Shown: positions 701-30,037 of the stretch, piece after piece | How positions within the stretch are numbered: position 1 is the stretch's first letter | Layout: each line of letters starts with the position of its first letter | NCBI GenBank assembly: GCA_038087875.1 | Contig: CM075996.1 | Span: 3,040,001-3,104,000 of the forward strand | DNA length: 64,000 nucleotides | Direction of reading: 5' to 3' | Origin: Malacoraja senta | Taxonomy: Eukaryota | Translations under genes and position numbers: made by a program | Notes under the pieces: generated by a model | The model's database searches: none | The model's input: the letters and a program-made list of their open reading frames with translations, nothing else | What the model was told of the DNA's origin: nothing

Positions 701-728
701 GACGTTTCGGGCCGAAACCCTTCTTCAG
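701..728 (-). ncRNA. Minimal hammerhead ribozyme-like core
   Basis: Reverse complement CTGAAGA-a-GGGT-ttcg-GCCC-GAAACGTC. Confidence 0.55.
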
Positions 729-1161: not shown

Positions 1162-1189
1162 CTGAAGAAGGGTCTTGACCCGAAACGTC
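1162..1189 (+). ncRNA. Minimal hammerhead ribozyme-like core in a Penelope-like end
   Basis: CTGAAGA-a-GGGTC-tt-GACCC-GAAACGTC. Confidence 0.55.
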
Positions 1190-2305: not shown

Positions 2306-4149
2306 CCTGTTTCCATGCGGTATGACCGGGTGACTCTAACTTCCTTCCAATATGTTCTCAGCTGCCCTTGTGTCTCCACTTCACTGTATCACAGGCACAT
2401 ATACTCAGGCAGCTCGCAAAAAAAAAACAATTTATGTATGGCTTGTACAGAAATTACACACCCTTCCAGATCTAGTTTCAAAATGTCTCAGTGTACTTTC
2501 ATTCACTCAAGATCGATAATAGTTAGGTGACGTTTCGGGTAGGGACTCTTGAGATGGGACCCAAAACCTTTGCCTATCCAAGTTCTCCAGGGTTGCCGCC
2601 TGACCCCGCTGAGTTACTCCAGCACTTTGTGTCTTCTCTTTCAGTAAACCGGCATGTGCCGTTTGTTCCTCGTGTCTGCTCCATATGTGGAGGCTGGCAG
2701 TTGGCGTACAGAGATGGGAAAGAATAAATAATAAGCTTGGTTCACGACTGCATCTTCGGCAGCGGCTGTTATTAGTCAGGCTGCTGAACATTTTCATCGT
2801 GTGGTTGCACATACATTCAAAATAAATTCGGCAGCACCCAGAGAGAGAAAAAAAAGATTCACGCATTGTGGACAGGGGGAGGCAATTTGCATAGTGCAAA
2901 GTCCAAAGAGCTGAGGCTCGGTTGGGTTGGGGCGGTGAACCAGTTTAGCACCTTTCTAATGGTTCTTGGCTTGCTGCGATGTGCCGTCCATCCGTCCATC
3001 TCTGCTGTGTATGGGCGTAAGCCACAGTCCTGTTTTTAGTTAGCAAGCTCGCCGCTGTCCTTTTAACCCTCTGTTCAGTTTCCGCGCTGTGTCTCCAAAG
3101 TAACGTGAAGTCAAGTCAATGTTCTCCCCCCTCTGTGACCGTGTGGGTTTCTTCCGAGTCCTTCTGGGTTTCCTCCCACATGACAAAGGCGTGCGGGTTT
3201 GTAGATTAATTGGCTTCTGTAAGTTTGTAGAATGCAAAACTGGGATAGCATAGAACTAGTGTGAGCGGGTGATCGATGTTCAGCGTGGACTCTGTGGGCC
3301 GAAGGGCCTGTTTCCACGTTGCATCTCCCAACCAAACTAAATTAAGCTTAACTAAACTAAACTTAACTACACAAAACTAAACTGTGGGGTCATATCCTAT
3401 TGACCTTTTTAAAGTCTATCCAGACGTCATGATCACCTGCCATCCTTTGTCCTGCCCCTCCTGTCTTCCAGCTTTCTCCCCCTCCCCCCCCCCCCACCCT
3501 CCCCCTGACAATCAGTCTGAAGTAAGTAAGTAAGTAAGTTTATTGGCCAAGTATTCACATACAAGGAATTTGCCTTGGTGCTCCGCCCACAAGTAACAAC
3601 ATGACATACAGCGACAGTTACAAATGACTCAGAAAACACTAAACATTAATAATAATAAAACATTAATGATAAAACACCATTGATCAAGCATGTGAACCAA
3701 CAAAATACCAGATCAAAGGGAGGCGACAGATTTTTGGCTGTTGAGTAGAGCAACTACTCGTGGATAAAGACTGTTTTTATGTCTGGCTGTGGCAGCCAGG
3801 GTCCCATGTGAAGAAGGGTCCCATACCGAAACGCCATCTATCCATCTTCTCTAGGGATGCTGCCTGACCACTGAGTTCATCCAAAACTTTGTGTCCTTTT
3901 GTGTCTAAAAGCCACTTCAATGTGGTATCCGTCTCTGAGCAGGGTCTAGGTAACAGAGTGGCTTCTTGCTCAAGGATGAGACTCTTTAAGGTGTGGGTTT
4001 TGTTAGGATGGAAGTCAGCAAATTTAACGACAAACACACGCCAGCTTCCAGCGTCGCCATTCATAAGTGATAGGAGCAGAATTAGGCCATTCAGCCCATC
4101 AAGTCTAATCTGCCATTCAATCATGGCTGTTCTTTCTTTCCCTCTCAAC

Positions 4150-4507
4150 CCAAGACAGACGTGAAGCTCACCGTTTGACCTGTTTTTACAAAATGTTAAA
4201 TGGTCAGCTCAACATAGATTACAAGACCTACACCAAACCCAAACCAATTAGGAGCAGACGAGGACATTCGATCCAATTTGAGATTCCAGCTACCAAGACA
4301 GATGTGTACAGCAATTCATTCTTCCCCCGCACAATTAAAGCATGGAATAATCTTCACCCTACCATAGTTACCCAACCAGATGCAACTAAATTTAAGGTAG
4401 CTATTTCTTCCCAAAAACCCTTTCTAGCTTAAGTCCTCCCTCCACCACCTCCAGTTTAAATTCCATTTGGAATATTTTGGAGGACCAAGAAACCAAGAAC
4501 CAAGAAC
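4150..4507 (+). mobile_element. CR1/L2-group LINE 3' fragment with (CCAAGAA)n tail
   Basis: ORF end ...DVYSNSFFPRTIKAWNNL. Similar copies at about 6395-7240 (interrupted) and 31255-31665 (minus). Confidence 0.75.
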
Positions 4508-5970
4508 CCCATTCTCCTGCCTTCTCCCCATAACCCCTGACACCCGTACTAATCAAGAATCTGTCAACTTCTGCCTTAGAAATATCCATTGACTTGGCCT
4601 CCACAGATTCACCACCCTCTGACTAAAGAAATTCCTCCTCATCTCCTTCCTAAAGGAACGTCCTTTAATTCTGAAGCTACGCCGTCTGGTCCTGGACCTT
4701 CTCCACGTCCACTCTATCCAGGCCTTTAAATTGTCCCTGGACTCCAGATGCATAGAAACGTAGAAAATTTGGTGCAGGAGTAGGCCATTCGGCCCTTCGA
4801 GCCAGCACTGCTATTCAATATGATCATGGCTGATCATCTAAAATCATCTAAAAGCGTTCCTGCTTTTGCCCCATATCCCTTGATTCCTTTAGCCCAAAGA
4901 GCTATATCTAACTCTCTGCAAAGGACGAGTGAAGTTCTCAGTGCAGTTCCCGATGTTGGGGGAGTCCAGAACCAGGGGCCACAGTTTAAGAATAAGGGGT
5001 AAGCCATTTAGAACGGAGACGAGGAAACACTTTTTCACACAGAGAGTTGTGGATCTGTGGAATTCTCTGCCTCAGAGGGCGGTGGTGGCCGGTTCTCTGG
5101 ATACTTTCAAGAGAGAGCTAGATAGGGCTCTTAAGGATAGTGGAGTCAGGGGATATGGGGAGAAGGCAGGAACGGGGTACTGATTGGGGATGATCAGCCA
5201 TGATCGCATTGAATGGCGGTGCTAGCTCGAAGGGCTGAATGGCCTACTCCTGCACCTATTGTCTAGTGTCTGTTGCACAGATGCACCGGGAACACAATGA
5301 AAATGTGAGCCTTTAATGAGGTGAAAGATTGTTTGTGGTCTGTGGTTAGCTGCTGGGAAGAAAACAGGAAATAATAAGTGTTGATTGGAAGTGGCACCAA
5401 CAAGTAGCTGATGCAGCAGTGAGCTCAGCTACACTCTGTTTCCCCTTTCTCCCTCTCCCTCAAAAGTTCTCCTGCCAGAAACATTCTAATAGTGCTGAGA
5501 GACAGCTATTAATCCCACGTCCGGGACTGCAGAGGAAGAACTGTGAATGCTCATCTAATTCACCTCCACACCGTGGGGCGGAACGGTAGAGTTGCTGCCT
5601 CCCACCACCACAGACCCGGGTTCGATCCTGACGACGGGAGCTGTCCGTACAGAATTTTGTACGGGAGGGTTTTCTCTGGTCTCCTCCCACATTCCGAACA
5701 CGCACACACAGGTTTGTAGGTTAATTGGCTTGGTAAAATCGTACATTGTCCCTCCTGTGTGTAGGGTAGTGTTAGTGTGCGGGGATCGCTGGTAGGCACG
5801 GACTTGGTGGGCTGAAGGGTCTGTTTCCGCGCTATGTCTCTAAACCAAACTTTCACCCACATCCTACTCACTGATCCCTTACACCAGCGTCTAGTAATCA
5901 ACAACTCAGACTCTCTTTATTTTCAAATGCTCCCCTGCCCGCTACAATCCCTTACCCAGTAAACGTGGTC

Positions 5971-6270
5971 GGCACGGTGGCTCAGCGGTAGAGTTGCTGC
6001 CTCACAGCGCCAGAGACCAAGGGTTCCATCCTGACCCACGGCTGCCGTCTGTACAGAGTTTGTACGTTCTCCCTGGGACCTGCGTGGGTTTTCTCCGGGT
6101 GCTCCGGTTTCCTCCCACACACTCCAACGACGTACAGGTTTCTTTTGGTTAATTGGCTTGGTAAAATTGTACATTGTCCCTCGTGTGTGCAGGAGTGTTA
6201 GTGTACGGGGGTCGCTGGTCGGCACGGACTCGGCAGGCCGAAGGGCCTGTTTCCGCGCTGCATCTCTAAA
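5971..6270 (+). mobile_element. HE1-like tRNA-derived V-SINE (representative copy)
   Basis: tRNA-like head ggcacggtggctcagcggtagag, V-domain gggttttctccgggtgctccggtttcctcccaca, CR1-type tail gggccgaagggcctgtttcc. Dozens of copies in the window. Confidence 0.85.
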
Positions 6271-6539
6271 CCAAGAACAGGCGATGTGGTGCGAAGAGCG
6301 GGGGAATGATAGAGAGGGTGTCTTTTCCTACTCGGCCCAGAGACTTATTTGCAGGCCTCAGATTTTCTGTAAGCTCGATTTGTTACTAATGCCTATGAGA
6401 GAGAAGCGAGTGTTACCAAACTCTTGAATTCACTTGTCGGGGTGGAACCCTCTCCAAGACAGACGTGAAGCTCACCGTTTGACCTGTTTTTACAAAATGT
6501 TAAATGGCCAGCTCGACATAGAGTACAAGACCAACACCA

Positions 6540-6963
6540 AAGGCTCTGACCTCCCTTCCATCGAGGGGATCTATCGCAGTCGCTGCCTCAAAAAGGCTGG
6601 CAGCATCATCAAGGACCCACACCATCCTGGCCACACACTCATCTCCCTGCTACCTTCAGGTAGAAGGTACAGGAGCCTGAAGACTGCAACGACCAGGTTC
6701 AGGAATACCTACTTCCCCACAGCCATCAGGCTATTAGACTTGGCTCGGACAAAACTCTGAACATTAATAGCCCATTATCTGTTATTCGCACTTTATCAGT
6801 TTATTTATTCATGTGTGTATTTACGTATATAATGGTATATGGACACACTGATCTGTTTTGTAGTCAATGCCTGCTATGTTCTGTTGTGCTGAAGCAAAGC
6901 AAGAATTTCATTGTCCTGTCAGGGACACATGACAATGAACTCTCTTGACTTGACTTGACTTGA
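6540..6963 (+). mobile_element. Rex1/Babar-like LINE 3' fragment nested in the preceding LINE family
   Basis: LPSIEGIYRSRCLKKAGSIIKDPHHPGHTLISLLPSGRRYRS...FPTAIRLL, with (CTTGA)n tail. Confidence 0.75.
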
Positions 6964-7682
6964 AGCCAAACCAATTAGGAGCAGACGAGGGCATTCGATC
7001 CAATTTGTGATTCCAGCTACCAAGACAGATGTGTACAGCAATTGGTTCTTCCCCCGCACAATTAAAGCATGGAATAATCTTCACCCTACCATAGTTACCC
7101 AACCAGATGCAACTAAATTTAAGGTAGCTCTTTCTTCCCAAAAACCCTTTGTGGCTTAAGTCCTCCCTCCACCACCTCCAGTTTAAATTCCATTTGGAAT
7201 ATTTTGGAGGACCAAGAAACCAAGAACCAAGAACCAAGAAAACTAAACTAAATTTCCTCACCAAACCATGTCACGTGTACCAAGGTACAGGGGGAAGCTT
7301 TGTTTTACATGCTACCCAGTCAAATCAGATGAAACCTTACATAAATATAACGAAGCCAAATTCAAGTACAATTAGCAGAGTGAAGAGAAAGATTCAAAGT
7401 GCAGAATACAACTTCTCAGCATTGTGGGGAAACAGTTCAAAATAAGCGGGTTCCAGGCAAACCATAGACTGGCACGGTGGCGCAGAGGTAGAGTTGCTGC
7501 CTCACAGCGCCAGAGACCCCAGTTCAATCCTGACCGCGGGTGCTGTCCGTGTGGAGTTTGCACGTTCTCCCCGTGACCTGCGTGGGTTTTCTCCGGGTGC
7601 TCCGGTTTCCTCCCACACCCCAAAGACGGGCAGATATGCAGGTTAAACGGCTTGACGGCATTGTAAATTATCCCAAGTGTGA

Positions 7683-10800: not shown

Positions 10801-13800
10801 TTAGCAAGCTCGCCGCTGTCCTTTTAACCCTCTGTTCAGTTTCCGCGCTGTGTCTCCAAAGTAACGTGAAGTCAAGTCAATGTTCTCCCCCCTCTGTGAC
10901 CGTGTGGGTTTCTTCCGAGTCCTTCTGGGTTCCTCCCACATGACAAAGGCGTGCGGGTTTGTAGATTAATTGGCTTCTGTAAGTTTGTAGAATGCAAAAC
11001 TGGGATAGCATAGAACTAGTGTGAGCGGGTGATCGATGTTCAGCGTGGACTCTGTGGGCCGAAGGGCCTGTTTCCACGTTGCATCTCCCAACCAAACTAA
11101 ATTAAGCTTAACTAAACTAAACTTAACTACACAAAACTAAACTGTGGGGTCATATCCTATTGACCTTTTTAAAGTCTATCCAGACGTCATGATCACCTGC
11201 CATCCTTTGTCCTGCCCCTCCTGTCTTCCAGCTTTCTCCCCCTCCCCCCCCCCCCACCCTCCCCCTGACAATCAGTCTGAAGTAAGTAAGTAAGTAAGTT
11301 TATTGGCCAAGTATTCACATACAAGGAATTTGCCTTGGTGCTCCGCCCACAAGTAACAACATGACATACAGCGACAGTTACAAATGACTCAGAAAACACT
11401 AAACATTAATAATAATAAAACATTAATGATAAAACACCATTGATCAAGCATGTGAACCAACAAAATACCAGATCAAAGGGAGGCGACAGATTTTTGGCTG
11501 TTGAGTAGAGCAACTACTCGTGGATAAAGACTGTTTTATGTCTGGCTGTGGCAGCCAGGGTCCCATGTGAAGAAGGGTCCCATACCGAAACGCCATCTAT
11601 CCATCTTCTCTAGGGATGCTGCCTGACCACTGAGTTCATCCAAAACTTTGTGTCCTTTTGTGTCTAAAAGCCACTTCAATGTGGTATCCGTCTCTGAGCA
11701 GGGTCTAGGTAACAGAGTGGCTTCTTGCTCAAGGATGAGACTCTTTAAGGTGTGGGTTTTGTTAGGATGGAAGTCAGCAAATTTAACGACAAACACACGC
11801 CAGCTTCCAGCGTCGCCATTCATAAGTGATAGGAGCAGAATTAGGCCATTCAGCCCATCAAGTCTAATCTGCCATTCAATCATGGCTGTTCTTTCTTTCC
11901 CTCTCAACCCAAGACAGACGTGAAGCTCACCGTTTGACCTGTTTTTTACAAAATGTTAAATGGTCAGCTCAACATAGATTACAAGACCTACACCAAACCC
12001 AAACCAATTAGGAGCAGACGAGGACATTCGATCCAATTTGAGATTCCAGCTACCAAGACAGATGTGTACAGCAATTCATTCTTCCCCGCACAATTAAAGC
12101 ATGGAATAATCTTCACCCTACCATAGTTACCCAACCAGATGCAACTAAATTTAAGGTAGCTATTTCTTCCCAAAAACCCTTTCTAGCTTAAGTCCTCCCT
12201 CCACCACCTCCAGTTTAAATTCCATTTGGAATATTTTGGAGGACCAAGAAACCAAGAACCAAGAACCCCATTCTCCTGCCTTCTCCCCATAACCCCTGAC
12301 ACCCGTACTAATCAAGAATCTGTCAACTTCTGCCTTAGAATATCCATTGACTTGGCCTCCACAGATTCACCACCCTCTGACTAAAGAAATTCCTCCTCAT
12401 CTCCTTCCTAAAGGAACGTCCTTTAATTCTGAAGCTACGCCGTCTGGTCCTGGACCTTCTCCACGTCCACTCTATCCAGGCCTTTAAATTGTCCCTGGAC
12501 TCCAGATGCATAGAAACGTAGAAAATTTGGTGCAGGAGTAGGCCATTCGGCCCTTCGAGCCAGCACTGCTATTCAATATGATCATGGCTGATCATCTAAA
12601 ATCATCTAAAAGCGTTCCTGCTTTTGCCCCATATCCCTTGATTCCTTTAGCCCAAAGAGCTATATCTAACTCTCTGCAAAGGACGAGTGAAGTTCTCAGT
12701 GCAGTTCCCCGATGTTGGGGGAGTCCAGAACCAGGGGCCACAGTTTAAGAATAAGGGGTAAGCCATTTAGAACGGAGACGAGGAAACACTTTTTCACACA
12801 GAGAGTTGTGGATCTGTGGAATTCTCTGCCTCAGAGGGCGGTGGTGGCCGGTTCTCTGGATACTTTCAAGAGAGAGCTAGATAGGGCTCTTAAGGATAGT
12901 GGAGTCAGGGGATATGGGGAGAAGGCAGGAACGGGGTACTGATTGGGGATGATCAGCCATGATCGCATTGAATGGCGGTGCTAGCTCGAAGGGCTGAATG
13001 GCCTACTCCTGCACCTATTGTCTAGTGTCTGTTGCACAGATGCACCGGGAACACAATGAAAATGTGAGCCTTTAATGAGGTGAAAGATTGTTTGTGGTCT
13101 GTGGTTAGCTGCTGGGAAGAAAACAGGAAATAATAAGTGTTGATTGGAAGTGGCACCAACAAGTAGCTGATGCAGCAGTGAGCTCAGCTACACTCTGTTT
13201 CCCCTTTCTCCCTCTCCCTCAAAAGTTCTCCTGCCAGAAACATTCTAATAGTGCTGAGAGACAGCTATTAATCCCACGTCCGGGACTGCAGAGGAAGAAC
13301 TGTGAATGCTCATCTAATTCACCTCCACACCGTGGGGCGGAACGGTAGAGTTGCTGCCTCCCACCACCACAGACCCGGGTTCGATCCTGACGACGGGAGC
13401 TGTCCGTACAGAATTTTGTACGGGAGGGTTTTCTCTGGTCTCCTCCCACATTCCGAACACGCACACACAGGTTTGTAGGTTAATTGGCTTGGTAAAATCG
13501 TACATTGTCCCTCCTGTGTGTAGGGTAGTGTTAGTGTGCGGGGATCGCTGGTAGGCACGGACTTGGTGGGCTGAAGGGTCTGTTTCCGCGCTATGTCTCT
13601 AAACCAAACTTTCACCCACATCCTACTCACTGATCCCTTACACCAGCGTCTAGTAATCAACAACTCAGACTCTCTTTATTTTCAAATGCTCCCCTGCCCG
13701 CTACAATCCCTTACCCCAGTAAACGTGGTCGGCACGGTGGCTCAGCGGTAGAGTTGCTGCCTCACAGCGCCAGAGACCAAGGGTTCCATCCTGACCACGG

Positions 13801-15442
13801 CTGCCGTCTGTACAGAGTTTGTACGTTCTCCCTGGGACCTGCGTGGGTTTTCTCCGGGTGCTCCGGTTTCCTCCCACACACTCCAACGACGTACAGGTTT
13901 CTTTTGGTTAATTGGCTTGGTAAAATTGTACATTGTCCCTCGTGTGTGCAGGAGTGTTAGTGTACGGGGGTCGCTGGTCGGCACGGACTCGGCAGGCCGA
14001 AGGGCCTGTTTCCGCGCTGCATCTCTAAACCAAGAACAGGCGATGTGGTGCGAAGAGCGGGGGAATGATAGAGAGGGTGTCTTTTCCTACTCGGCCCAGA
14101 GACTTATTTGCAGGCTCAGATTTTCTGTAAGCTCGATTTGTTACTAATGCCTATGAGAGAGAAGCGAGTGTTACCAAACTCTTGAATTCACTTGTCGGGG
14201 TGGAACCCTCTCCAAGACAGACGTGAAGCTCACCGTTTGACCTGTTTTTACAAAATGTTAAATGGCCAGCTCGACATAGAGTACAAGACCAACACCAAAG
14301 GCTCTGACCTCCCTTCCATCGAGGGGATCTATCGCAGTCGCTGCCTCAAAAAGGCTGGCAGCATCATCAAGGACCCACACCATCCTGGCCACACACTCAT
14401 CTCCCTGCTACCTTCAGGTAGAAGGTACAGGAGCCTGAAGACTGCAACGACCAGGTTCAGGAATACCTACTTCCCCACAGCCATCAGGCTATTAGACTTG
14501 GCTCGGACAAAACTCTGAACATTAATAGCCCATTATCTGTTATTCGCACTTTATCAGTTTATTTATTCATGTGTGTATTTACGTATATAATGGTATATGG
14601 ACACACTGATCTGTTTTGTAGTCAATGCCTGCTATGTTCTGTTGTGCTGAAGCAAAGCAAGAATTTCATTGTCCTGTCAGGGACACATGACAATGAACTC
14701 TCTTGACTTGACTTGACTTGAAGCCAAACCAATTAGGAGCAGACGAGGGCATTCGATCCAATTTGTGATTCCAGCTACCAAGACAGATGTGTACAGCAAT
14801 TGGTTCTTCCCCCGCACAATTAAAGCATGGAATAATCTTCACCCTACCATAGTTACCCAACCAGATGCAACTAAATTTAAGGTAGCTCTTTCTTCCCAAA
14901 AACCCTTTGTGGCTTAAGTCCTCCCTCCACCACCTCCAGTTTAAATTCCATTTGGAATATTTTGGAGGACCAAGAAACCAAGAACCAAGAACCAAGAAAA
15001 CTAAACTAAATTTCCTCACCAAACCATGTCACGTGTACCAAGGTACAGGGGGAAGCTTTGTTTTACATGCTACCCAGTCAAATCAGATGAAACCTTACAT
15101 AAAATATAACGAAGCCAAATTCAAGTACAATTAGCAGAGTGAAGAGGAAAGATTCAAAGTGCAGAATACAACTTCTCAGCATTGTGGGGAAACAGTTCAA
15201 AATAAGCGGGTTCCAGGCAAACCATAGACTGGCACGGTGGCGCAGAGGTAGAGTTGCTGCCTCACAGCGCCAGAGACCCCAGTTCAATCCTGACCGCGGG
15301 GTGCTGTCCGTGTGGAGTTTGCACGTTCTCCCCGTGACCTGCGTGGGTTTTCTCCGGGTGCTCCGGTTTCCTCCCACACCCCAAAGACGGGCAGATATGC
15401 AGGTTAAACGGCTTGACGGCATTGTAAATTATCCCAAGTGTG
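7883..15442 (+). repeat. Large duplication, copy 2 (about 7.56 kb)
   Basis: Near-identical to 332-7681. Differs by single-base homopolymer indels, a few substitutions and VNTR length. Confidence 0.97.
9402..10066 (+). repeat. Same 35-bp minisatellite, 19 units
   Basis: 210 bp (6 units) longer than the copy at 1851-2305. Confidence 0.95.
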
Positions 15443-15530
15443 TGTAGGATAGTGTTTGTGAGCGGGTGATCGATGGTCGGCGCGGTGGCCCCGGCGGGCC
15501 GAAGGGACCGTTTCCGCTCTGTATCTCTAA
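15231..15530 (+). mobile_element. HE1-like V-SINE abutting the CSF2RB-like fragment
   Basis: Same head, V-domain and tail structure. Confidence 0.85.
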
Positions 15531-15534
15531 TCTG

Positions 15535-15832
15535 AGAACAGGCGATGTGGTGAGAAGGGGAGGGGGAATTCTGAAAAGGGGGCTGCTTCTCCAAGGGGTC
15601 CAGAGACTTACTTGCAGGCTCCGATTTTGTGGATGAGACCTGGCCTTTGGTGGATTCAGTTCCCTTGGTCGGTAAAGACCCGGGAAGGAAGCAATAATCT
15701 CCGATCTGCTGGAAGAGAATGGGATTAGCTCCTGACTGGAACAAGATGAGCTCCGAGGCCTCGTTATTCACCGTGTCCATGCGTGGAGGCTCTGCCTCTT
15801 TGGCCACGGGATTCTGCAGGTCCACCAGAGGC
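15535..15832 (-). pseudogene. Isolated fragment resembling the CSF2RB (common beta chain) cytoplasmic terminal exon
   Basis: Minus-strand open frame ...ELILFQSGANPILFQQIGDYCFLPGSLPTKG..., with QQIGDYCFLPG at 15679-15711 (human CSF2RB QQVGDYCFLPG, recalled). Bounded by SINE sequence on both sides; no other CSF2RB exons recognised. Confidence 0.65.
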
Positions 15833-18800
15833 AGACTTGGTGGGCCGAAGGGCCTGTTTCCTCACTGTATCTCTAAACTACAGTGACAAAGAGGTCCTTC
15901 AATATATTGTTTAGGAAGCATCTGCAGATGCTTTGGTTTAAATCGAGGATAGACACAAAAAGCTGGAGTAACTCAGCGGGACAGGCAGCATCTCTGTGAG
16001 AGAGGAATGGGTGATGTTTTGGGTCAAGACCCTTCATCAGACTGTCTCTTAAAAATAGCGGAGTCAGGGATATGGGGAGAAGGCAGGAACGGGTACTGAT
16101 TGGGGATGATCAGCCATGATCACATTGAATGGCGGTGCTGGCTTGAAGGGCCGAATGGCCTACTCCTGCACCTATTGTCTATTGTGTATTGTCTCTATTG
16201 TCCCGCTGAGTTACTCCAGCTTTTTGTGTCCTTAAATATATCGGCTGCTTTCCTGAGGCAGCGTGAAGTATTGATGGAATTGATGAGGTGGGGAGGAGGC
16301 TGGTGTGCTCGCTGGACCAGACTGCATCCACAATTCTTCGAATTCCCCCCTGAATTCGTGGCAGAGGAGTTGTCAAACCAAGGATACTTCTATGGAATTT
16401 GGGAAGAGTCTTTGGGGATATGCCAAATTACCCTGTATAGGAAGGAACTGCAGATGCTGGTTTAAACCGATGATAGATAGACACAAAACGCTGGAGTAAC
16501 TCAGCGGGACAGGCAGCATCTCTGGAGAGAAGGAATGGGTGACGTTTGCGGGTCGTGACCCTTCTTCAGAATCTAGCCTCACCGGAAGGCACCATGTTGT
16601 CACACGTCACCGCCCGGAAGCCCGGCAGTTTTATTAACTGCACCACCTAAGTTCGATTACGCCTACTAGAGTTTCGCTCGAGCAGTTCTTGACGGAAATG
16701 CTACCCTGTAGGCGGGCGACACTTGGAGAGAAAGTTCACGTGTTGCACCTACTTGGTTTCTTGGTATCGTAAACATGCGGTTTGGAGAAAATGGCCCGGC
16801 CCTATTTATATGGCACCAAGCTTGTACCCAGACCATTGGCATTCCAGCAGGCAATGCCAGGCAGGGAACACGAAAGGGAGATCATAGGTCCATAGGTGAC
16901 AGGAGCACAATTAGGCCATTTGGCCCATCGAGTCTACTCTGTAATTGAATCATGGCTGATCTATCTCTCCCTCCTAAATGGGTGCAAATCCAGCTGGGGC
17001 ACAGGGAAGAGAAGGGAATTAAGGGGGCACGTTGGTGGGGGTGGGGGTGGGTGGGGTGTTACAAATCAGTGCGTGGCACAGTGGTGCAGCTGGTGGAGCT
17101 GTTGCCTCGTAGCGCCAAAGACCCGGGTATGATCCTGACCTCGGGTGCTGTCTGTGTGGAGTTTGCACGCTCTCCCTGTGACCGGGTGGGTTTCTGGTGG
17201 GTTGTTGGTTTCCACGCAGTATCTCTAAGCTAAACTAAACAAAACTACACTTAACTAAACTCAACTAAACTAGACCCAATAGCCAATAGGTGCAGGAGTA
17301 GGCCATTCGGCCCTTCGAGCCAGCACCGCCATTCAATGTGATCATGGCTGATCATCCCCAATCAGTACCCCGTTCCTTCCTTCTCCCCATATCCCCTGAC
17401 TCCGCTATCTTTAAGAGCCCTATCTAGCTCTCTCTTGAAAGTATCCAGAGAACCTGCCTCCACCGCCCTCTGAGGCAGAGAATTCCACAGACTCACCACT
17501 CTCTGTGAGAAAAAAGTGTTTCCTATTAACCCATGTTCGATCCTGATCTCGGGTTTCTGTCTGTGTGGAGTTTGCACGTTCTCCCTGCACGTCCGCCTAG
17601 GCCGCCATGCCCACATGCCAAAGAGGTGCAGGTTTGTAGGTGATTTGGCTTCTGTTATTTGCGTAAGGAGTGGATGCAAAAGTGGGTTAACGTCGAACTA
17701 GTGTGAGCGGGCGATCGATGGTCAGATGTGGTCTGGGGAGCGTGGAGGTGGGAGGAGAGAGACGTAGAGGGGATTAGATCGAGGTTGAGTTTGGATGCAG
17801 AGCAGAACCTTGAGTGGTTCAATGGTCCATTATTTGTCAGGTACCAAGGTACAGTGAAATACATATTTGTATACAGATCAGTACAAGTATCACTAAACAT
17901 AAGCACTATTAGATACATCTTAGATAAACATCTCAGATACATATGTGTATAATAGTATACAATTGAAGTGTATGTAAGTGTATAGTAACAGTACAGTTTA
18001 CACAGTCGCCAGTTTGGCACCTTTACCACGTAGACCGTTGACTTTAGATGGGGTTGTAATACAGCAGCAAAGAACTGCAGATGCTGGTTAATACACAAAA
18101 GGACACAAAGTGCTGGAGTAACTCAGCGGGTCAGGCAGCATCTATGGAGAACATGGATAGGTGACGTTTCGGGTCTTCTCATAAGGTCATAAGGTCATAA
18201 GGAATAGGAGCAGAATTAGGCCATTCGGCCCATCAAGTCTACTCCGCCATTCACTCATGGCTGATCTATCTCTCCCTCCTAACCCCATTCTCCTGGCTTC
18301 TCCCCATAACCCCTGACACAGGCGTACTAACTAAGAAATCAGCTAGTCAGCTTCTCCGGGACTGATGGCACCCGACCTGAAACGTCACCTACCCATGCTC
18401 CCCAGAGATGCTGCCCGACCCGCTGAGTTACCCCAGCACTCTGTGCCCGTCAAAGGTCACAAGATGTTCAGAAACATTGTTGGCTGGCCCCTCATTGAGA
18501 TTAATTTAAGACCATCTGGAGATTCAGCTGAGCTGCGACAACAACTCACAGTAGCACTTTCTTACTGCACAGGAACTAAGATTCAGTTTCCTGTGCTAAA
18601 GGTTCGACGCTTTGATAAATGGCCACTTTTAAAAGTCAGTGACCAGTCTATTTTGACAAACAGTTCCTGTTTGCCAGTTCACCCTTTGTTCTACAAACCA
18701 TCGCGCCGTGAATACAAAGTGTGAGCTCGGGGCTGAGGGGATTTCAGTCATTCTAGGCAGAAGCCGGGTGTTTTCAGTTCATGGCCATGGATCAGTGGCC

Positions 18801-20179: not shown

Positions 20180-20246
20180 ATGGGAGGAATCATCCTGATT
20201 ATCTTCACTGCCTCCATCTGGCCCACGAACCTTGGATGTAAATGCG
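20180..20246 (+). CDS. IL2RB: IL-2 receptor beta, coding exon 1 (signal peptide MGGIILIIFTASIWPTNLGCKC)
   Basis: ATG at 20180 lies just after an acceptor (cttccag, exon starts 20168), implying an upstream non-coding exon. Hydrophobic leader; ends G|gtaag in phase 1 and joins the next exon in frame. Confidence 0.85.
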
Positions 20247-20373
20247 GTAAGTACCAGCAGGTATTTAATTTCCAAATTTGCCCGGTTCCTTCCCACTTCC
20301 CACGAAGGCCCATAAAGGTCTTGGAAATCCCCGAGTGAAAACTGACGGGTCTTGCGTTGTGTCTTTGGAACAG

Positions 20374-20491
20374 AGAACAAAGATCTGAAGTGTGCAGTGG
20401 ATTATGGCAAGGAGATGACATGTTGCTGGTCGCAAAACGTTTCCCTGAGCAACGCGTGCCAAGTCTGGGTGGATGATTTGAGGCCTAACAA
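20374..20491 (+). CDS. IL2RB: IL2RB coding exon 2 (D1 first half, (E)NKDLKCAVDYGKEMTCCWSQNVSLSNACQVWVDDLRPN(K))
   Basis: Acceptor ggaacag, donor gtgagt, phases 1/2. C-x9-C-x-W pattern typical of class I cytokine receptor D1. Confidence 0.9.
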
Positions 20492-21159
20492 GTGAGTTTG
20501 GTTTGGGTTTGTTGTGAGTTTGGTTTGTGGAGAGAAGGCAGGCACGGGTTATTGACAGGGGACGATCAGCTATGATCACAATGAATGGCGGTGCTGGCTC
20601 GAAGGGCCGAATGGCCTCCTCCTGCACCTATTTTCTGTTTCTATGTTTCTATGTATGACAAGAGCACCTCGCTAGGGACAACATCCACCACCATAAACAT
20701 CAGCAGGAGATGCCCTCAGCCCCCCTCGTCCGTCCGTAGTCAGTGTTTAGTTTAGCTTAGAGATACCTTGCTCTAAACCTTAATAGACACAAAATGCTGG
20801 AGTAACTCAGCGGGACAGGCAGCATTTCTGGAGAGAAGGAATGGGTGACGTTTCAGGTCGAGACCCTTCTTCAGACACTTCTCGACCCAAAATGTCACCC
20901 ATTCCTTCTCTCCAGAGATGCTGCCAATCCCGCTGAGTTACTCTACACCAGCATTTTGTGTCTATCTTCGATTTAAACCAGCATCTGCAGTTCCTTCCGA
21001 CACATTTTGCACATTTATTCCCTTATCATGTATCTATACAGTGTGAATGGCTCGATTGTAATCATGTATTGTCTTTCCGCTGACTGGATAGCACGCAACA
21101 AAAGCTTTCCACTGCATGTGACAATAAACGGAACTGAATCAAACTGAACTGAACAAGAC

Positions 21160-21430
21160 ACCACGTGGATCCACCGAATCCACGCCGACCAGCGGTCCCC
21201 ACGCTCTAACATTACCCGACACACACTAGGGACAACTTCCAATTATACCAAGCCCACTAACCTACAAACCTGTACGTCGTTGGAGTGTGGGAGAAAACCG
21301 GAGCACCCGGAGAAAACCAACGATGTCACGGGGATGAACGTACAAACCCCGTACAGACAGCACCTGTAGTCAGGATCGAACCCGGGTCTCTGGCGCTGTG
21401 AGGCAGCAACTCTACCGCTGCGCCACCGCG
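21160..21430 (-). mobile_element. HE1-like V-SINE
   Basis: Reverse complement of the SINE consensus seen elsewhere in the window. Confidence 0.8.
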
Positions 21431-22129
21431 CCGCGCCGTGCTTTGGGATAGTGAAACGAGCCCAGTGGACAATGGAGACCAAATGGAGACAAATAAAAAG
21501 CATCTGAGACTCAGACGACACAGAAAACATAAATTATACCAGACACTGGAACGTTTAAAAAACTGTGCAGAAATAAGTTGTGCAGAACGCAAGTAAGATA
21601 TTAGGGCGGCACGGTGGTGCAGCGGTTGAGTTGCTGCCTCACAGCGCCAGGGACCCCGGTTCGATCCCAACTACTGGTGCTTGTCCGTACGGAGTTTGTA
21701 CGTTCTCCCCGTGATCGCCAACACAAGGCTTGGACAGAGTGGACGTGGAGAGGGTGTTTCCACCAGTGGGAGAGTCTAGGACTAGAGATCATAGCTGCAG
21801 AATTAAAGGATGTTCTTTTAGGAAGGAGATGAGGAGGGATTTCTTTAGTCAGAAGGTGGTGAATCTGTGGAATTCATTGCCACAGAAGGCTGTGGAGGCC
21901 AAGTCAGTGGATATATTTAAGGCAGAGATAGATAGGTTCTTGATTAGTATGGAGGTTATGGACACATTAGTTCAGTTTAGTTTAGTTTAGTTTATTGTCA
22001 CGTGTACCGAGGTACAGTGAAAAGCTTTTGTTGCGTGCTAACCAGTCAGCGGAAAGACAATATATGATTACAATTGAACCATTCACAGTGTACAGATATA
22101 TGATAAGTGAATAACATTAAGTGCAAGGT

Positions 22130-22560
22130 TAAGCCAGTAAGCTCAACACTGCTCTCTGGTTGTTGGTAACAGCTGGGAAGAAACTGTCCCTGAATCTGGA
22201 GGTGTGCGTTTTCACACTTCTATACCTTTTGCCTGATGGGAGAGGGGAGAAGAGGGAGTGGCCAGGGTGCGACTGGTCCTTGATTACGCTGCTGGCCTTG
22301 CCGAGGCAGCGTGAGGTGTAGATGGAGACAATGGAAGGGAGGTTGGTTTGTGTGACGGTCTGGGCTGCGTCCACAATTCACCGCAATTTCTTGCGGTCTT
22401 GGATGGAACTGTTCCCAAAACAGGCTGCGATGCATCCCGATAAAATGCTTTTTGTGGCGCATCTGTAGAAGTTGGTGAGAGTTTTTGGGGACATGCCGAA
22501 CTTCCTAAGCCTTCAAAGGAAGTAAAGGCGTTGGTGTAACTTTCTTGGTCGTTGCTTCAA
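22130..22560 (-). mobile_element. Rex1/Babar-like LINE 3' fragment
   Basis: LPSIVSIYTSRCLGKASSVIKDQSHPGHSLFSPLPSGKRYRS. Confidence 0.75.
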
Positions 22561-22881
22561 TAACATCAGATTGAATTGTAGAGGTAGCAAGCCTCCCCCC
22601 AGCTCAGACCTATCTCCAGTAGCTCCCCCCCCCCCCCGCCCCCACCCCGCCAAACTCCACCTGATCACCAACCAAAAGAAGAAAAATATGTTTTTCAAGA
22701 CATCGTGTCAAGGTGGTTTTTTGGTTGAGAACCTTTATTGATAAAACCACTATAGACGAAGGACAGAAATACCCCAAATAGTAACAACATTAGATTGTGA
22801 AAGCAGATACCAATGGTACACAAGCACGCACGCACAATCACACGCATGTACCGTGCATTGACAAGCATATGCACACGCACT

Positions 22882-22884
<3 letters not shown>

Positions 22885-22960
<76 letters not shown>
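22885..22960. repeat. (CA)n microsatellite
   Basis: Direct reading. Confidence 0.98.
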
Positions 22961-22962
<2 letters not shown>

Positions 22963-24088
22963 CATGCATGGGCATCAACAAACATATGCACATGTGCGCA
23001 TGCACACACATGATCACACATGCATGGGCATTAACTAACATATTCACATGCATGTATACACACACACACACTCACACACATGTATTGCACGTTAACAAAT
23101 GTGAACATGCATGACTGCACACACACGCAAACACACACATCCATTGCATTAACAACTGTGCACATACACGCCTGCACACATACACATCAAGAATCCGTCA
23201 ATCTCCGCCTTAAGAATATCCATTGACGGCAACAAATTCCACAGATTCACCACCCTCTGACTAAAGAAATTCCTCCTCATCCCCTTTCTAAAGGTACATC
23301 CATTTATTCTGAGGCCGTGGCCTCTGGTCCTAGACTCTCTCACCACCAGTGCCTAGCAAAGATTATAGAGCAGAGCTGGTATCTATGGTGCCTAGTGCCA
23401 TCAATCCACCCTGCCACAACTATAGAGTGGCCTTGAACTACTATCTACCTCATTGGAGACTCTTGGACTATTTTAGATTGTACTTTGCTGGCTTTACCTC
23501 GCACTAAACGTTATTCCCTTTATCATGTATCCGTACACTGCGAATGGCTCGATTGTAATCATGTATTGTCTTTCCGCTGACTGGTTAGCACGCAACAAAA
23601 GCTTTTCACTGTACCTCGGTACACATGACTATAAACTATGTAAACCAAACCAAAAATCATATGTTAACTGAATAATTCCTGGGATCGTTTAGTTTAGTTT
23701 AGTTTAGTTTAGTTTACTTTACTTCAGAAGTACTGCGCGGAAACAGGCCTTTCGGCCCACCGGGTCCGCACCGACCAGTGATCCCCGCACATTAACACTA
23801 TCCTACACACACTAGTGACTATTTCGACATTTATACCAAGCCAATTAATCTACACCTTTGGAGTGTGGGAGGAAACCGAAGGTCTCGGAGAAATCCCACG
23901 GGGAGAACGTGCAAACTCCGTACTGACAGCGCCCGTGATCAGGATCGAACCCGGGGTCTCCGGCGCTGTAAGGCAGCAACTCTGCCGCCGCGCCACCGTG
24001 CCGCATCATTCTCATGAACCTTCACATGTTCCCCAGCGAGGTTCCCTTCACTGTAACGAGAACAGGGGGGGGGCATCTTGCTCCTTAA

Positions 24089-24785
24089 CAGGGCCGGATT
24101 TACGTATAAGCTAGTCAAGCTTAAGCTTAGGGCCTCGAGATCTAGGGGGGCCTACTCACCTCGCTGCCTCACCGACCATCCGCCCACCGGGACCTCCTGC
24201 TCTTTGCCCGCTGACCCTGGCCACTCCACCGCCCTCCAGCAGCCCGCAGCCGTCACCTTACCTGCAGCCTGGACTCAGCACCGGGCCTGAAGTTTCCACA
24301 CGGCAGACCCCAACTCCCCTGGGTTTGACTGCGCTGGGTCCTAGTGCTAGGCATCCCCTAACCCTGGTAACCTCAGTGGCTGTTCCACTGGGTCTTCCCT
24401 ATTCCCCTCAAACCATGTGACCCCAGCTCTTCCCCACCCACACTACAGTCCTCATACCCCCTGACCACCCACCACCCCTCCACCAGACATCGCCTATGCC
24501 TCAGTCCACTCACCTGCCTTCCTCCGGCCCCAACCCCCATCCCTGCCACAGGCCCAACACTCCAGAGCTTCAAACAGCGATCCAGGTAAGGCATCGCGGT
24601 GAATCCAATATGTATTTTACAACCAACTGTTTAATGACAACATACAGTAGGATCTAAAAGTGTCGCACTGTCACTGTCGGGTAGTCATGGTCCTCTAGTC
24701 GTGGGGGTGGGGGACTGGGGGGGGGTAGGGGGGGGCCTCACAAGTGAAATAGCTTATAGCCTCTCTTCATCTAAATCTGGCCCTG
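24089..24785. mobile_element. Non-autonomous hAT-like DNA transposon
   Basis: TIRs cagggccggattta / taaatctggccctg; flanks ctccttaa / ctcctttt (imperfect 8-bp TSD). Confidence 0.65.
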
Positions 24786-26218
24786 CTCCTTTTTAAGCAC
24801 AACTTGTGAAGGATGACTGTGTCTTGCCGTGCGAAATCCCTCCACAGCCACCGAGTGTGACCTTCAGATCGTGCACATGAAATGTTGTGGTGTAATCGCA
24901 GGCCTGAGCACTGAAGCCGCATCCTGACTAAACAAACAACAAAATGTTCCAAAGGAAGAAGGCTGTCAAACCCCCAACAACACCTCCTTTGGCTGAAGGC
25001 CAGACACCTTTGTTCTTCTATCACGCTGCTCCTGACATAGAGGCATAGAGTGGTACAGCGTGGAAACAGGCCCTTCGGCCCCACATGCCCACCCCGACCA
25101 ACATGTCCCAGCCACACTAGTCCCACTTTCCTGTACTTGGCCCATATGCCTCCAAACCCGTACCATCACTGACTGATGCATATAGAACATAGCATGGTAA
25201 TCTATATCTCTCGTTCCCCTTTCCCCTGACTCTCAGTCTGACGAAGTCTAATATACAGAATTTCCCTTTAACGGTTTGTTTATTGCAGCAGGCACTTTAG
25301 CAATTTTCCTTCTTCCCAAATGGTCTTGTAACAAATACACATCATGCGTCTCCGAAATACACAGCAGAGTAAACACAGCCCAATTCCACACCATTACAGG
25401 GAAGAAACATAGAAACATAGAAAATAGGTGCAGGAGTAGGCCATTCGGCCCTTCGACCCTGCACCGCCATTCAATATGATCATGGCTGATCATCCAACTC
25501 AGTATCCTGTACCTGCCTTCTCTCCATACCCCCTGATCCCTTTAGCCACAAGGGCCACATCTAACTCCCTCTTAAATATAGCCAACGAACTGGCCTCAAC
25601 TACTTTCTGTGGCAGAGAATTCCACAGATTCTCCACTCTCTGTGTGAAAAAAAAAATTCTCATCTCGGTCCTAAAAGAATTCCCCCTTATCCTTAAACTG
25701 TGACGCCGTGTTCTGGACTTCCCAGCAAATGTCCCGTTACCCTTTCGACCTTGTTTTATTGTTTTACGATTGCCGTTTGTCCTTTGACAGCAGAGAACAG
25801 GATCTGACTAAAGTATGTAGGAAAAAACTGCAGATGCGGGTTTAAATCGAAGATAGACACAAAATGTTGGAGTAACTCAGCGGGACAGGCAGCATCTCTG
25901 GAGAGAAGGAATGGGTGACGTTTTGGGTCGAGACGCTTCATCAGACTGAAGACGGGTCTCGACCCAAAACGTCACCCATTCCTTCTGACTAAAGTAGACC
26001 GCAGTGAGTGTCGGTTACACCTGCTCAGTTTCAACCTGCTCTATAGCACAGAATTATTCTATCACATGATGAGGACTTTAAGCATTTTTAAGCACTCTAC
26101 CTAGCCCTATCCCTTGCTGCCTTCTTGAAGCTTTGCTATATATTTTTGGCACTACCGAATCGTACTTTTAGTTTGCTATTCTCATATTCTCTCTTCCTTC
26201 TATGTTTGGCTTTCAAAG

Positions 26219-26394
26219 GAAAACATTTCCAATTATGTGTGCCCCAGTAAATGGACTGAAGCAGGGCAGGAGTTGTTCTCTCAATGTGCCTTTCTTCGCT
26301 GCGGCTCAAGTCTTCAACGTCACGCTGCTATGCACCAGGAATGGGCTGACCACTGCAGTTGCAACCATTTCCGAGTTTATACCAGCGGAAAATA
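26219..26394 (+). CDS. IL2RB: IL2RB coding exon 3 (D1 second half, KTFPIMCAPVNGLKQGRSCSLNVPFFAAAQVFNVTLLCTRNGLTTAVATISEFIPAEN)
   Basis: Polypyrimidine tract plus aag acceptor, donor gtaagt, phases 2/1. Three Cys; EFIPAENI resembles mammalian DFKPFENL. Confidence 0.9.
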
Positions 26395-26552
26395 GTAAGT
26401 CAACGCCATCATTTTGCCTCTAGACCTTCGAGGTACAGTGCGGAAACAGGCCCTTCGGCCCGCGGAGTCCATGCCAACCAGCGATCACTGCCACATTCTA
26501 CACCCTCCCAATTGTCAATGGCTCATTCCGGACCTTGATGGCAAGGATATTT

Positions 26553-26890
26553 TGTTGTTTTTTTTTAAAATATTTTTATTAGAAGCATATACATATTATA
26601 ACCAAAACACGATTTGCTTACCAATTACATATATACAAAGCTTCTATTTTTTATTAAACTTTTTTGAATAGATAGAGCTGTAGAAAGAAAAGAAATAAGA
26701 GAAAAAGAAAGGAAACTATACGCTAATAGAGAGGGGAGGGGAAAAAAACCAGAGGTGATTACCGATAACACAATTTTGGAGATAGGTCCGTAGATTATAA
26801 AGTGTAATTACTCATCCAATCCTGGATTCAGGTTTCAGTCCAGCTTCCGTGTTGAACCAATCCACCCCTTTAGAAATTCAATAAATGGAG
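26553..26890 (-). mobile_element. L1-clade LINE 3' end with TSD
   Basis: T-rich tail on the left; ORF2-like end SPFIEFLKG on the minus strand; direct repeat AGGATATTT at 26544-26552 and 26891-26899. Confidence 0.65.
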
Positions 26891-27814
26891 AGGATATTTA
26901 GTTTTTAGTTTAGTTTAGAGATTCAGCACGGAAACTGGCCCCTCGGCCCTCCGAGCCCGCGCCGACCAGCGATCATCCCTTACGCTAGCTCTATCCCTAC
27001 ACACACTAGGGATAGTTTACAATTTACAGAAACCAGTCATCCTGCAAGCCTACACGTTTTCGGAGTTTGGGAGGAAACCGGAGCACCCGGAGAAAACCCA
27101 CGCGGTCACAGAGAGAGAAGGTGCAAACATCATGCAGGCAGCAGCCGAGGTCAGGATCGAACCTTTTTCAGATGGGTTTTTGGCGCTGTGAGGCAGCAAC
27201 TCTCCCGCTGCGCCACCATGCCACTCCCATTCCAGGATTTAGACACACTAGGATTTTCTAAGTCGCTTTTAAAAATGCATATGTTTTCTTGGTGCTTGGA
27301 TTGTTACAGAACTTCAACAGTGAATTTTCAAACTCTTCTCACAAGTTCTACCTGAACTGAGGCTGAAAGTAGATGTCACTGTGTTATGAAGCTGACTTTA
27401 GTTGAGTCTGGTGAAGGGTCCCCACCCGAAATGTTACCCATTCCTTCTCTCCAGAGATGCTGCCTGTCCCGCTGAGTTACTCCAGCATTTTGTGTCTATC
27501 CTCAGTGTAAACCAGCATCTGCAGTTCCTTCCTATGCAATACTACAAATGCGGCCTTACCAGCGTCTTCCACCAACAGGAACGTAACACTTACATGGGTT
27601 CAAGGCTCAGTCCAGGGGTCTTGAGTACAAAAGTTGTTGAGCTTTATAATTGAAAGAGTTTTATTATCCTCCTTTTTATTAATAGTGAAGTGTCAAGAGT
27701 GTTATTGTCATTTATCCCAGACAGAACAATGACATTCATATTTACAGCAGTACAACAGAATATGTAAACATGGTACTCTATAAACATTATAATAAACGAG
27801 AGAAAATTAACTGT

Positions 27815-27817
27815 ATG

Positions 27818-27849
<32 letters not shown>

Positions 27850-27940
27850 TAGGAACACATACAAAACAGACAATAATAGTGCAATAATAACAATAATATT
27901 CTATGTTGTGTACACACACACACACACATACACATATATA

Positions 27941-27973
<33 letters not shown>

Positions 27974-28000
27974 GCATACACATACACATACACATATATA

Positions 28001-28047
<47 letters not shown>

Positions 28048-28054
28048 ATATATA

Positions 28055-28096
<42 letters not shown>

Positions 28097-28120
28097 TACA
28101 CATACACATACACATATATA

Positions 28121-28152
<32 letters not shown>

Positions 28153-28503
28153 TACACATACACATATATACACACATACACACACACACACACACATATA
28201 TACACACATACACACACACACACATGCACATACACATACACATATATACACACATACACACACACATGCACACACACACACATACACACACACACACAGA
28301 GACACATATATATACACATACACACACACAAACACACACACATACACACACACACACACATACACACACATACATACATACATACACACACACATACACA
28401 CACACACATACACACACACATACACACACACACATACACACACATAAATACATATGCACATATACACGCACACACACGCGTGCATGCACACACACGTACA
28501 CAT
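27815..28503. repeat. Compound (CA)n/(TA) microsatellite
   Basis: Direct reading. Confidence 0.97.
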
Positions 28504-29947: not shown

Positions 29948-30037
29948 TTACAGACAGTGAGGAAGGCTGCAAATGTATACAGCGGGATATCGGTCACCTC
30001 TAGAAATGAGCGGGGAAACAACTAATGGAGTTTAATC

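What the first reader, a model, noticed from the sequence alone, without database searches (positions are those of the whole stretch)
15535..15832. Orphan CSF2RB (common beta chain)-like tail fragment, antisense and upstream of IL2RB
Seen: a roughly 300-bp non-repeat island whose minus strand reads without stops through LFQQIGDYCFLPG. Known (recalled): human CSF2RB has LQQVGDYCFLPG around a distal signalling tyrosine, maps near IL2RB and TMPRSS6, and has duplicated in mammals (mouse Csf2rb2, a human pseudogene). Inference: a SINE-bounded relic of a CSF2RB paralogue about 4.3 kb upstream of the IL2RB start codon. It would record local duplication or inversion of the beta-chain cluster in cartilaginous fish. 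A minus-strand GTAAGT donor near 15605-15610 leaves open its use as an exon of an antisense transcript.
Basis: partly seen in the sequence, partly recalled or inferred. Interest (0 to 1): 0.72.

Follow-up and report, generated by a model that had tools for sequence, protein, structure and literature searches.

The report
SINE-copied CSF2RB tail beside skate IL2RB
The last 99 codons of a skate immune-receptor gene (CSF2RB) sit as a stray 300-base copy on the opposite strand 4.3 kb before the IL2RB start codon, likely pasted there by copying between two SINE repeats and likely functionless, so this is probably ordinary repeat-driven debris rather than a lost second receptor gene.

Summary
The homology is real. 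15535-15831 (minus) is the last 99 codons of skate CSF2RB: 83/99 identical to the Leucoraja and Amblyraja proteins, ending exactly at their C-terminus. The stop position reads CAG here and TAG in three public runs. No other CSF2RB exon is in the window.

It is not an ancient paralogue. It groups within skates and differs by 3.9-6.6% from gene-type contigs of other runs. Those contigs also run into a SINE at the stop codon.

The unit is full SINE + gene tail + SINE 3' piece. Two runs carry the junction (X1, X7; short side 26-28 letters).

CSF2RB and IL2RB share a chromosome-length contig in 13 of 13 species. Best reading: two local SINE-to-SINE template-switch copies from a nearby intact gene (0.55). 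Rival: retrotransposed read-through chimeras (0.25).

The GTAAGT donor is private to this copy and chance-level. There is no evidence of function.

The parts
15535..15832 (-). Copy A: last 99 codons of the CSF2RB last exon (residues 812-910 of Leucoraja P0002), no indels, includes the QQIGDYCFLPG tyrosine motif
15532..15534 (-). Position of the CSF2RB stop codon; reads CAG here, TAG in gene-type contigs of X2, X7 and X19
15231..15533 (+). Full-length SINE whose 3' tail abuts the stop codon; 40 of 299 sites differ from a consensus of the window's copies; gene-type contigs also run from the stop into SINE sequence
15833..15880 (+). Last 48 bases of a SINE, fused directly to the upstream end of the CSF2RB piece; CSF2RB does not resume after it
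13731..14032 (+). Copy B: full-length SINE (24 of 298 sites from consensus); the stop position 14030-14032 reads TGG on the minus strand
14033..14124 (-). Copy B: about 95 bases of the CSF2RB 3' end, 76/95 identical to copy A, with indels; homology ends at a TTTT run (14121-14124)
14125..15010 (+). Copy B 3' end: SINE-tail-like letters at 14125-14130 and 14998-15010, split by a 5'-truncated LINE piece (14131-14997, itself interrupted at 14300-14711); that the two bits were one tail is inferred
15606..15611 (-). GTAAGT donor-like hexamer, private to the window's copy A; a cryptic acceptor-like site ends at 15709
16574..16878 (.). Unique stretch with CpG observed/expected about 0.8 and two of the window's three CCGGAAG sites (16582, 16614); possible IL2RB promoter (inferred, untested)
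20180..43763 (+). IL2RB coding exons (eight tblastn pieces per skate protein; last exon 42978-43763, 89-91% identical to Leucoraja and Amblyraja)
332..7681 (+). Probable assembly overlap repeating 7883-15442 across a 200-N gap; holds a twin of copy B at 5971-6369
   Evidence: 0 mismatches and 12 gap openings in 5,368 bases

Best explanation
The stretch is a copy of the last 99 codons of skate CSF2RB set between a full SINE and a SINE tail piece; it is likely non-coding and was likely made by DNA template switching between a resident SINE here and the SINE at the stop codon of a CSF2RB gene predicted to lie nearby. Steps: (1) shown: in gene-type contigs a SINE tail abuts the CSF2RB stop, antisense to the gene. 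(2) inferred: a broken or stalled strand in a resident SINE upstream of IL2RB invaded that donor SINE, copied past its end into the last exon, and returned to the resident SINE's tail by short homology. This leaves SINE + gene tail + SINE tail. (3) inferred: it happened twice, early (copy B, about 95 bases) and later (copy A, about 300 bases), both within skates. (4) shown for this assembly only: copy A then lost the stop and gained a donor-like hexamer. (5) inferred: neither copy has a function.
For: Identity and exact C-terminal end. No other CSF2RB exon found with any fetched CSF2RB protein.

One search shows two kinds of contig. Gene-type contigs leave the window's sequence at 15821-15832 and run on for 916, 932 and 1,342 letters (X1 record 6, X2 record 23, X19 record 9). 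Junction-type contigs follow it into the SINE tail (X1 record 5, 0 differences over 15733-15858; X7 record 31, 4 differences over 15764-15860). X7 record 32 also carries the right flank 15853-15945.

A and B share homology from the SINE 5' end to 95 bases past its tail and nowhere else (shuffle tests 873 and 727 of 1000 beyond it). Both end in SINE-tail letters. No target-site duplication over 4 bases was found. The two SINE bodies share only 2 derived states, within the 1-6 that SINE A shares with other copies, so A is not a recent tandem copy of B.

CSF2RB and IL2RB lie on contigs of equal length in 13 of 13 species where both were retrieved. Their RefSeq numbers are consecutive or nearly so in 2 of 10. 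Precedent: Alu/Alu insertional duplication of PAAF1 exons 24 kb away (PMC13041450, section 19).
Against: No genome is held, so the position, distance and orientation of the intact gene are not shown; equal contig length and accession order are hints only. The run-on letters of the gene-type contigs were not printed, so 'rest of the last exon' is inferred.

The junction contigs have 26 and 28 letters on the SINE side, under the tool's 31-letter rule, and X1 may be the assembly's own sample. No junction contig was listed for X2 or X19. No run shows the window's letters at 15534-15640 (X1 has no cover at 15548-15727), so the stop loss and the donor rest on this assembly alone.

A chimeric SINE, which the model predicts, could not be shown. 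Copy B ends at a T4 run, which suits the RNA rival. A 122-base stretch over the conserved motif has no window-private change (longest-gap P about 0.05 for 10 changes, 0.008 for 14), which needs later gene conversion, selection or luck.
Confidence: 0.55

Rival explanations
1. Both units are retrotransposed chimeras. Pol III read through the donor SINE into antisense CSF2RB; a LINE reverse transcriptase started on a SINE tail, then switched to the read-through RNA, as in U6-LINE and U6-SINE chimeras.
For: Both units begin at the SINE 5' end and finish in SINE-tail letters. Copy B's homology stops at TTTT, a possible Pol III end. Template-switch chimeras occur with L2, RTE and SINE partners in platypus and Anolis (PMC4476161, passages). 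Tail-dependent LINEs need such a tail (PMC3747384, passages).
Against: Two insertions 1.5 kb apart, on the donor's own chromosome, are unlikely for genome-wide targeting. No scattered copies at 80% likeness or more were seen, though copies as old as B could fall under that limit. Copy A passes the same TTTT and ends at no T run. The SINE body itself holds TTTT.
Confidence: 0.25
2. One reading: the remains of a larger CSF2RB duplicate or an inversion breakpoint, trimmed by deletions and later SINE insertions.
For: CSF2RB and IL2RB are linked in 13 of 13 species. A 5'-truncated SINE could have inserted later. At two sites (15597, 15610) copy A shares copy B's letter against all three gene-type contigs, so the split may be as old as early hard-nose skates.
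Against: No other CSF2RB sequence in 64 kb. Both copies start and stop at SINE ends. One CSF2RB per species in 15 elasmobranch species. No long inverted match around the island.
Confidence: 0.12
3. Copy A is used: a divergent transcript from the possible IL2RB promoter 0.75 kb away crosses it in the CSF2RB sense and makes a short soluble peptide bearing the tyrosine motif, or a regulatory RNA.
For: Two CCGGAAG sites at 16582 and 16614; a single GABP site raised reverse activity in 4 of 6 promoters (PMC2077898, passages). An in-frame ATG at 15780 opens 172 codons. No private change over 122 bases around the motif.
Against: The stop is lost. Most window-private changes are non-synonymous, though the gene-type contigs also carry many, so this test has little power. 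The X7 junction contig has two further non-synonymous changes. The open frame is expected by chance. The promoter is only inferred.
Confidence: 0.05
4. The island is an assembly chimera of the true gene end with IL2RB-upstream sequence.
For: An assembly overlap and gap end 90 bases short of the island's equivalent position.
Against: The junction stands in contigs of two runs of different organisms. Copy B is 20% diverged and cannot be a mis-join.
Confidence: 0.03

Closest known systems
Skate CSF2RB (XP_055519314.1 Leucoraja erinacea; XP_032868986.1 Amblyraja radiata; XP_078286758.1 Rhinoraja longicauda)
   Same: Last 99 residues, 84%, 84% and 72% identical, same C-terminal end, same QQIGDYCFLPG motif.
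   Different: No signal peptide, fibronectin domains, membrane span or Box1 region; stop lost; fused to a SINE tail.
Alu/Alu-mediated insertional duplication (AAMR 'transposition', e.g. PAAF1 exons 5-6; PMC13041450 section 19)
   Same: Exonic DNA copied to a nearby site, with SINE sequence at both junctions; a two-switch model fits.
   Different: A tRNA-type fish SINE (type inferred), only 95-300 bases of exon, apparently shared between species, and apparently repeated twice from one donor. A chimeric SINE was not shown.
U6-LINE and U6-SINE template-switch chimeras (PMC4476161, passages)
   Same: Full-length Pol III-type sequence at the 5' side fused to a retroposon 3' end; copy B ends at a T run.
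   Different: No target-site duplication; clustered instead of dispersed; copy A ends at no T run.
Mouse Csf2rb2 and human CSF2RBP1 (recalled; search found no paper)
   Same: CSF2RB-derived duplicate near the parent gene.
   Different: As recalled, those are multi-exon gene duplicates and Csf2rb2 is a working receptor; this is a fragment of one exon with an independent skate origin.

Membership tests
CSF2RB-derived sequence | Significant protein match to CSF2RB orthologues beyond the motif | tested here: met
   E 1e-44, 84% over 99% of the query; groups with skate CSF2RB
CSF2RB paralogous gene or whole-gene pseudogene | Further exons (extracellular, membrane span, Box1) in order on the same strand | tested here: not met
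   tblastn of all fetched CSF2RB proteins finds only the island and weak cross-hits on IL2RB's own exons; only this 64-kb window could be searched
CSF2RB paralogous gene or whole-gene pseudogene | Intact stop and coding constraint | tested here: inconclusive
   Stop reads CAG; non-synonymous changes dominate on both window and gene-type branches; 122-base unchanged core
SINE/SINE-mediated insertional duplication | SINE sequence at both junctions, same orientation | tested here: met
   15231-15533 and 15833-15880, both plus; copy B alike
SINE/SINE-mediated insertional duplication | Chimeric SINE with a mappable switch point | tested here: inconclusive
   Divergence by quarter 13/100, 2/59, 15/70, 10/70; donor SINE not available in full
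SINE/SINE-mediated insertional duplication | Donor copy retained, close by in cis | tested here: inconclusive
   Gene-type contigs in X1, X2, X19; same-length contig in 13 of 13 species; distance unknown
SINE/SINE-mediated insertional duplication | Pre-event allele is a plain SINE | not testable with these tools
   No skate genomes are searchable here
Retrotransposed template-switch chimera or 3' transduction | Starts at the Pol III element's 5' end and ends in a retroposon tail | tested here: met
Retrotransposed template-switch chimera or 3' transduction | Target-site duplication | tested here: not met
   Longest shared word 4 bases for both units; CR1/L2-type insertions may lack them (recalled)
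Dispersed repeat family | Many genomic copies | tested here: not met
   One contig per run over 15548-15727 in 3 of 4 runs, none in X1, against over 40,000 records laid per large run on the stretch, nearly all on the SINE parts
HE1 / V-SINE | tRNA-derived head, V-domain core, HER1-type tail | not tested
   Name is a lead from a table in PMC3747384; Rfam gave no hit over 13600-16000

The most novel reading that the evidence does not exclude
A SINE lodged at the CSF2RB stop codon has repeatedly seeded copies of the receptor's signalling tail next to the IL2RB promoter, and the younger copy has been recruited. Divergent transcription from a bidirectional ETS/GABP promoter yields a soluble peptide (82 codons to the old stop, 172 with read-through) carrying the conserved tyrosine motif, which acts as a decoy for beta-common signalling in IL2RB-expressing skate lymphocytes.
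Probability: 0.05. Interest if true: 0.7.

Novelty: new member of a known kind. Interest (0 to 1): 0.27.

Why it matters
As debris it matters little for immunology. It is a tidy natural example of one SINE copying the same exon end twice into the region upstream of a neighbouring gene, with a clean test between DNA-level and RNA-level copying (plain SINE versus empty site in an outgroup). It is also a possible presence/absence marker for skate phylogeny, and a warning for annotation and for read mapping to CSF2RB's last exon. It would matter much more if the copy were transcribed or translated from the IL2RB promoter.

Tried and rejected
SINE truncation of the skate CSF2RB C-terminus: rejected; the skate stop aligns with the Heterodontus and Mustelus ends.

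Continuation of CSF2RB after copy B or after its LINE: not above shuffles.

Copy A as a recent tandem copy of B: only 2 shared derived SINE states.

dN/dS as a test: no power, since gene-type contigs also carry mostly non-synonymous changes in this tail.

Open frame as evidence of selection: rejected.

P0056 and P0057 (2 of 6 hits): repetitive unrelated proteins, dropped.

Pfam on the island, the IL2RB tail and the 56110-56445 frame: 0 of 3 hit. Rfam: none. ESM Atlas on 56110-56286: no usable hit, so the TMPRSS6 label is untested. RNA folding of the three SINE tails: not beyond shuffles (best z -1.46).

Expression: no RNA holder listed; X19 is marked 'probably DNA', so it says nothing on expression. 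Depths 20.7 (junction) against 36.6 (gene-type) in X1 were not read as copy number.

Earlier scan notes: nothing.

Literature: searches listed no paper on CSF2RB/IL2RB synteny or this fragment in skates, judged by titles and abstract starts; the library lacks most subscription papers and no supplements were read.

Full report
Observation. The minus strand of 15535-15834 translates without a stop and holds LFQQIGDYCFLPG. A search of 5.8 billion proteins of 176-2000 residues gave 3 hits among 101 candidates, all skate CSF2RB: Leucoraja and Amblyraja (84% identity, E 1e-44) and Rhinoraja (72%). The match covers residues 812-910 of the 910-residue Leucoraja protein without gaps, so the island is exactly the last 99 codons. 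The plus-strand neighbour is IL2RB: eight exon pieces from 20180 to 43763, last exon 89-91% identical to the two skate proteins. The window is therefore from a skate (inferred from these identities).

What else is in the window. tblastn with every fetched CSF2RB protein found nothing but the island and weak cross-hits to IL2RB's own fibronectin exons. Self-comparison showed that only 15632-15827 is unique. The SINE at 15231-15533 plus the next 95 bases recur at 13731-14127 (SINE part 244/297, CSF2RB part 76/95 identical). I call these copy A and copy B. A third occurrence at 5971-6369 lies in a 7.35-kb stretch that repeats 7883-15442 across a 200-N gap, with 0 mismatches and 12 gap openings in 5,368 bases, most likely an assembly overlap.

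Anatomy. Copy A is a full SINE, then CSF2RB antisense to 15832, then the last 48 bases of a SINE, then unrelated DNA. Copy B is a full SINE, then CSF2RB antisense up to a TTTT at 14121-14124, then SINE-tail-like letters at 14125-14130 and 14998-15010 with a truncated LINE between them. That the two bits formed one tail is my inference. Homology between A and B starts at the SINE 5' end and does not extend outward. The stop position reads CAG in A and TGG in B, each one change from TAG. No target-site duplication over 4 bases was found.

Other genomes. One search listed 24 runs, 20 holding part of the stretch; I laid 4 of them. Gene-type contigs match the island, then leave the window's sequence at 15821-15832 and go on for 916 (X1), 932 (X2) and 1,342 (X19) letters. 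Those letters were not printed; I infer they are the rest of the gene. X2, X7 and X19 read TAG at the stop and continue into SINE sequence (to 15519, 15510 and 15458), so the SINE at the stop belongs to the donor. Junction-type contigs follow the window into the SINE tail in X1 (15733-15858, 0 differences) and X7 (15764-15860, 4 differences). X7 also has a contig over the right flank (15853-15945). The SINE side of these junction contigs is 26 and 28 letters, below the tool's 31-letter rule, and X1 may be the assembly's own sample, so X7 is the only independent hint. None was listed for X2 or X19. Over 15548-15727 each of X2, X7 and X19 gave a single contig at 80% likeness and X1 gave none, so no dispersed family was seen; copies as diverged as B could be missed. 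The word shares predicted from the difference lists (0.62, 0.40, 0.16) match those reported for X1, X2 and X19 (0.63, 0.41, 0.15). The X1 figure assumes its contigs lack the window's seven letters at 15570-15640, through collapse or true difference, so those letters rest on this assembly alone.

Age. Over 15534-15791 the window differs from the X2, X7 and X19 contigs at 10, 15 and 17 of 258 sites; those contigs differ from each other at 7-11. In a 14-row tree of the C-terminal region the island is sister to Leucoraja, Amblyraja and an unnamed skate record (90/89), inside a skate group with Rhinoraja (95/93) (five rows were left out: Heptranchias, Cetorhinus and Pristis as short or truncated here, the second Narcine isoform, and the mammals as a group). 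At 15597 and 15610 copy A keeps copy B's letter against all three gene-type contigs. So A is about as old as the splits among the sampled skates, and B is older. Neither is a relic from the base of cartilaginous fish.

Where the donor is. No genome was held. CSF2RB and IL2RB proteins come from contigs of equal length in 13 of 13 species where both were retrieved. Their RefSeq numbers are consecutive in Leucoraja and one apart in Heterodontus, 2 of 10 species with both numbers seen. This hints at adjacency but gives no distance or strand. One search returned 16 elasmobranch rows from 15 species, with no second CSF2RB locus; it covers only proteins of 500-1593 residues.

Mechanism. Local template switching between SINEs explains in one step why each unit starts in a SINE, overshoots into the gene by a variable length, ends in a SINE tail and leaves the donor intact, and why both copies lie together near the donor's presumed place. 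A human precedent is Alu/Alu insertional duplication (PMC13041450; I read passages and section 19). The two SINE bodies share only 2 derived states, no more than A shares with other copies (1-6), so A is not a recent tandem copy of B. I could not show a chimeric SINE. The RNA rival fits copy B's end at a T run and has precedent in U6 chimeras with L2, RTE and SINE partners (PMC4476161, passages), but it does not explain the clustering, and copy A passes the same T run. I put 0.55 on local DNA copying, 0.25 on RNA chimeras, 0.12 on a trimmed larger duplicate, 0.05 on a used copy and 0.03 on artefact.

Function. The donor-like GTAAGT (15611-15606) is absent from the gene-type contigs and from B and is one change from B's letters. 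The hexamer occurs 34 times in the window, about 0.08 per 300 bases per strand. An open frame survives 10-14 random substitutions in 56-66% of simulations. Against pure drift: no window-private change falls in 15641-15762, which covers the conserved motif (longest-gap P 0.05 for 10 changes, 0.008 for 14). Later gene conversion from the donor would also do this. A stretch at 16574-16878 has two of the window's three CCGGAAG sites and CpG observed/expected about 0.8, and the IL2RB ATG exon has an acceptor before it. A promoter there is inferred, and GABP sites can drive reverse transcription (PMC2077898, passages). An ATG at 15780 opens 172 codons. There is no expression evidence either way.

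Verdict. It is a skate-specific, SINE-anchored partial-exon copy, made twice, most likely inert. New member of a known kind; interest 0.27.

Noticed in passing
window 332-7681 and 7883-15442: 7.35-kb repeat across a 200-N gap with almost only indel differences; probable unmerged contig overlap. 59648-61464 and 62184-64000 are also 99.8% identical and may be another.
   Followed up: partly
proteins P0021-P0023, P0025-P0029, P0032, P0033: Ten unnamed Logan skate CSF2RB forms of 425-433 residues; the five printed leave the full-length sequence right after the last fibronectin domain and stop before the membrane span. Likely a soluble, intron-read-through isoform, or calls on unspliced RNA.
   Followed up: no
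window 16574-16878: Possible IL2RB promoter or non-coding first exon: two CCGGAAG sites, CpG observed/expected about 0.8, about 3.3 kb before the ATG exon.
   Followed up: partly
window 56110-56300 (+): Exon-like frame with a hydrophobic type II membrane span ending in WYFL; TMPRSS6-like by recall only, Pfam and ESM Atlas gave no hit.
   Followed up: partly
X19 record 9 and X7 record 30: Both runs are labelled organism C yet differ at 11 of 258 sites, several non-synonymous at otherwise fixed residues; this may be a collapsed gene/copy mosaic, a further CSF2RB copy, or different species under one label.
   Followed up: partly
window 1848-2311 and 9399-10072: 35-base minisatellite that resembles a retroposon tail, with different unit counts in the two twin copies.
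   Followed up: no
P0012 (Cetorhinus) and P0009 (Heptranchias): These CSF2RB records end 2 and about 37 residues after the GDYCFIP motif, shorter than other sharks; no elasmobranch record shows the last QQDYL tyrosine motif seen in the two mammalian records.
   Followed up: no
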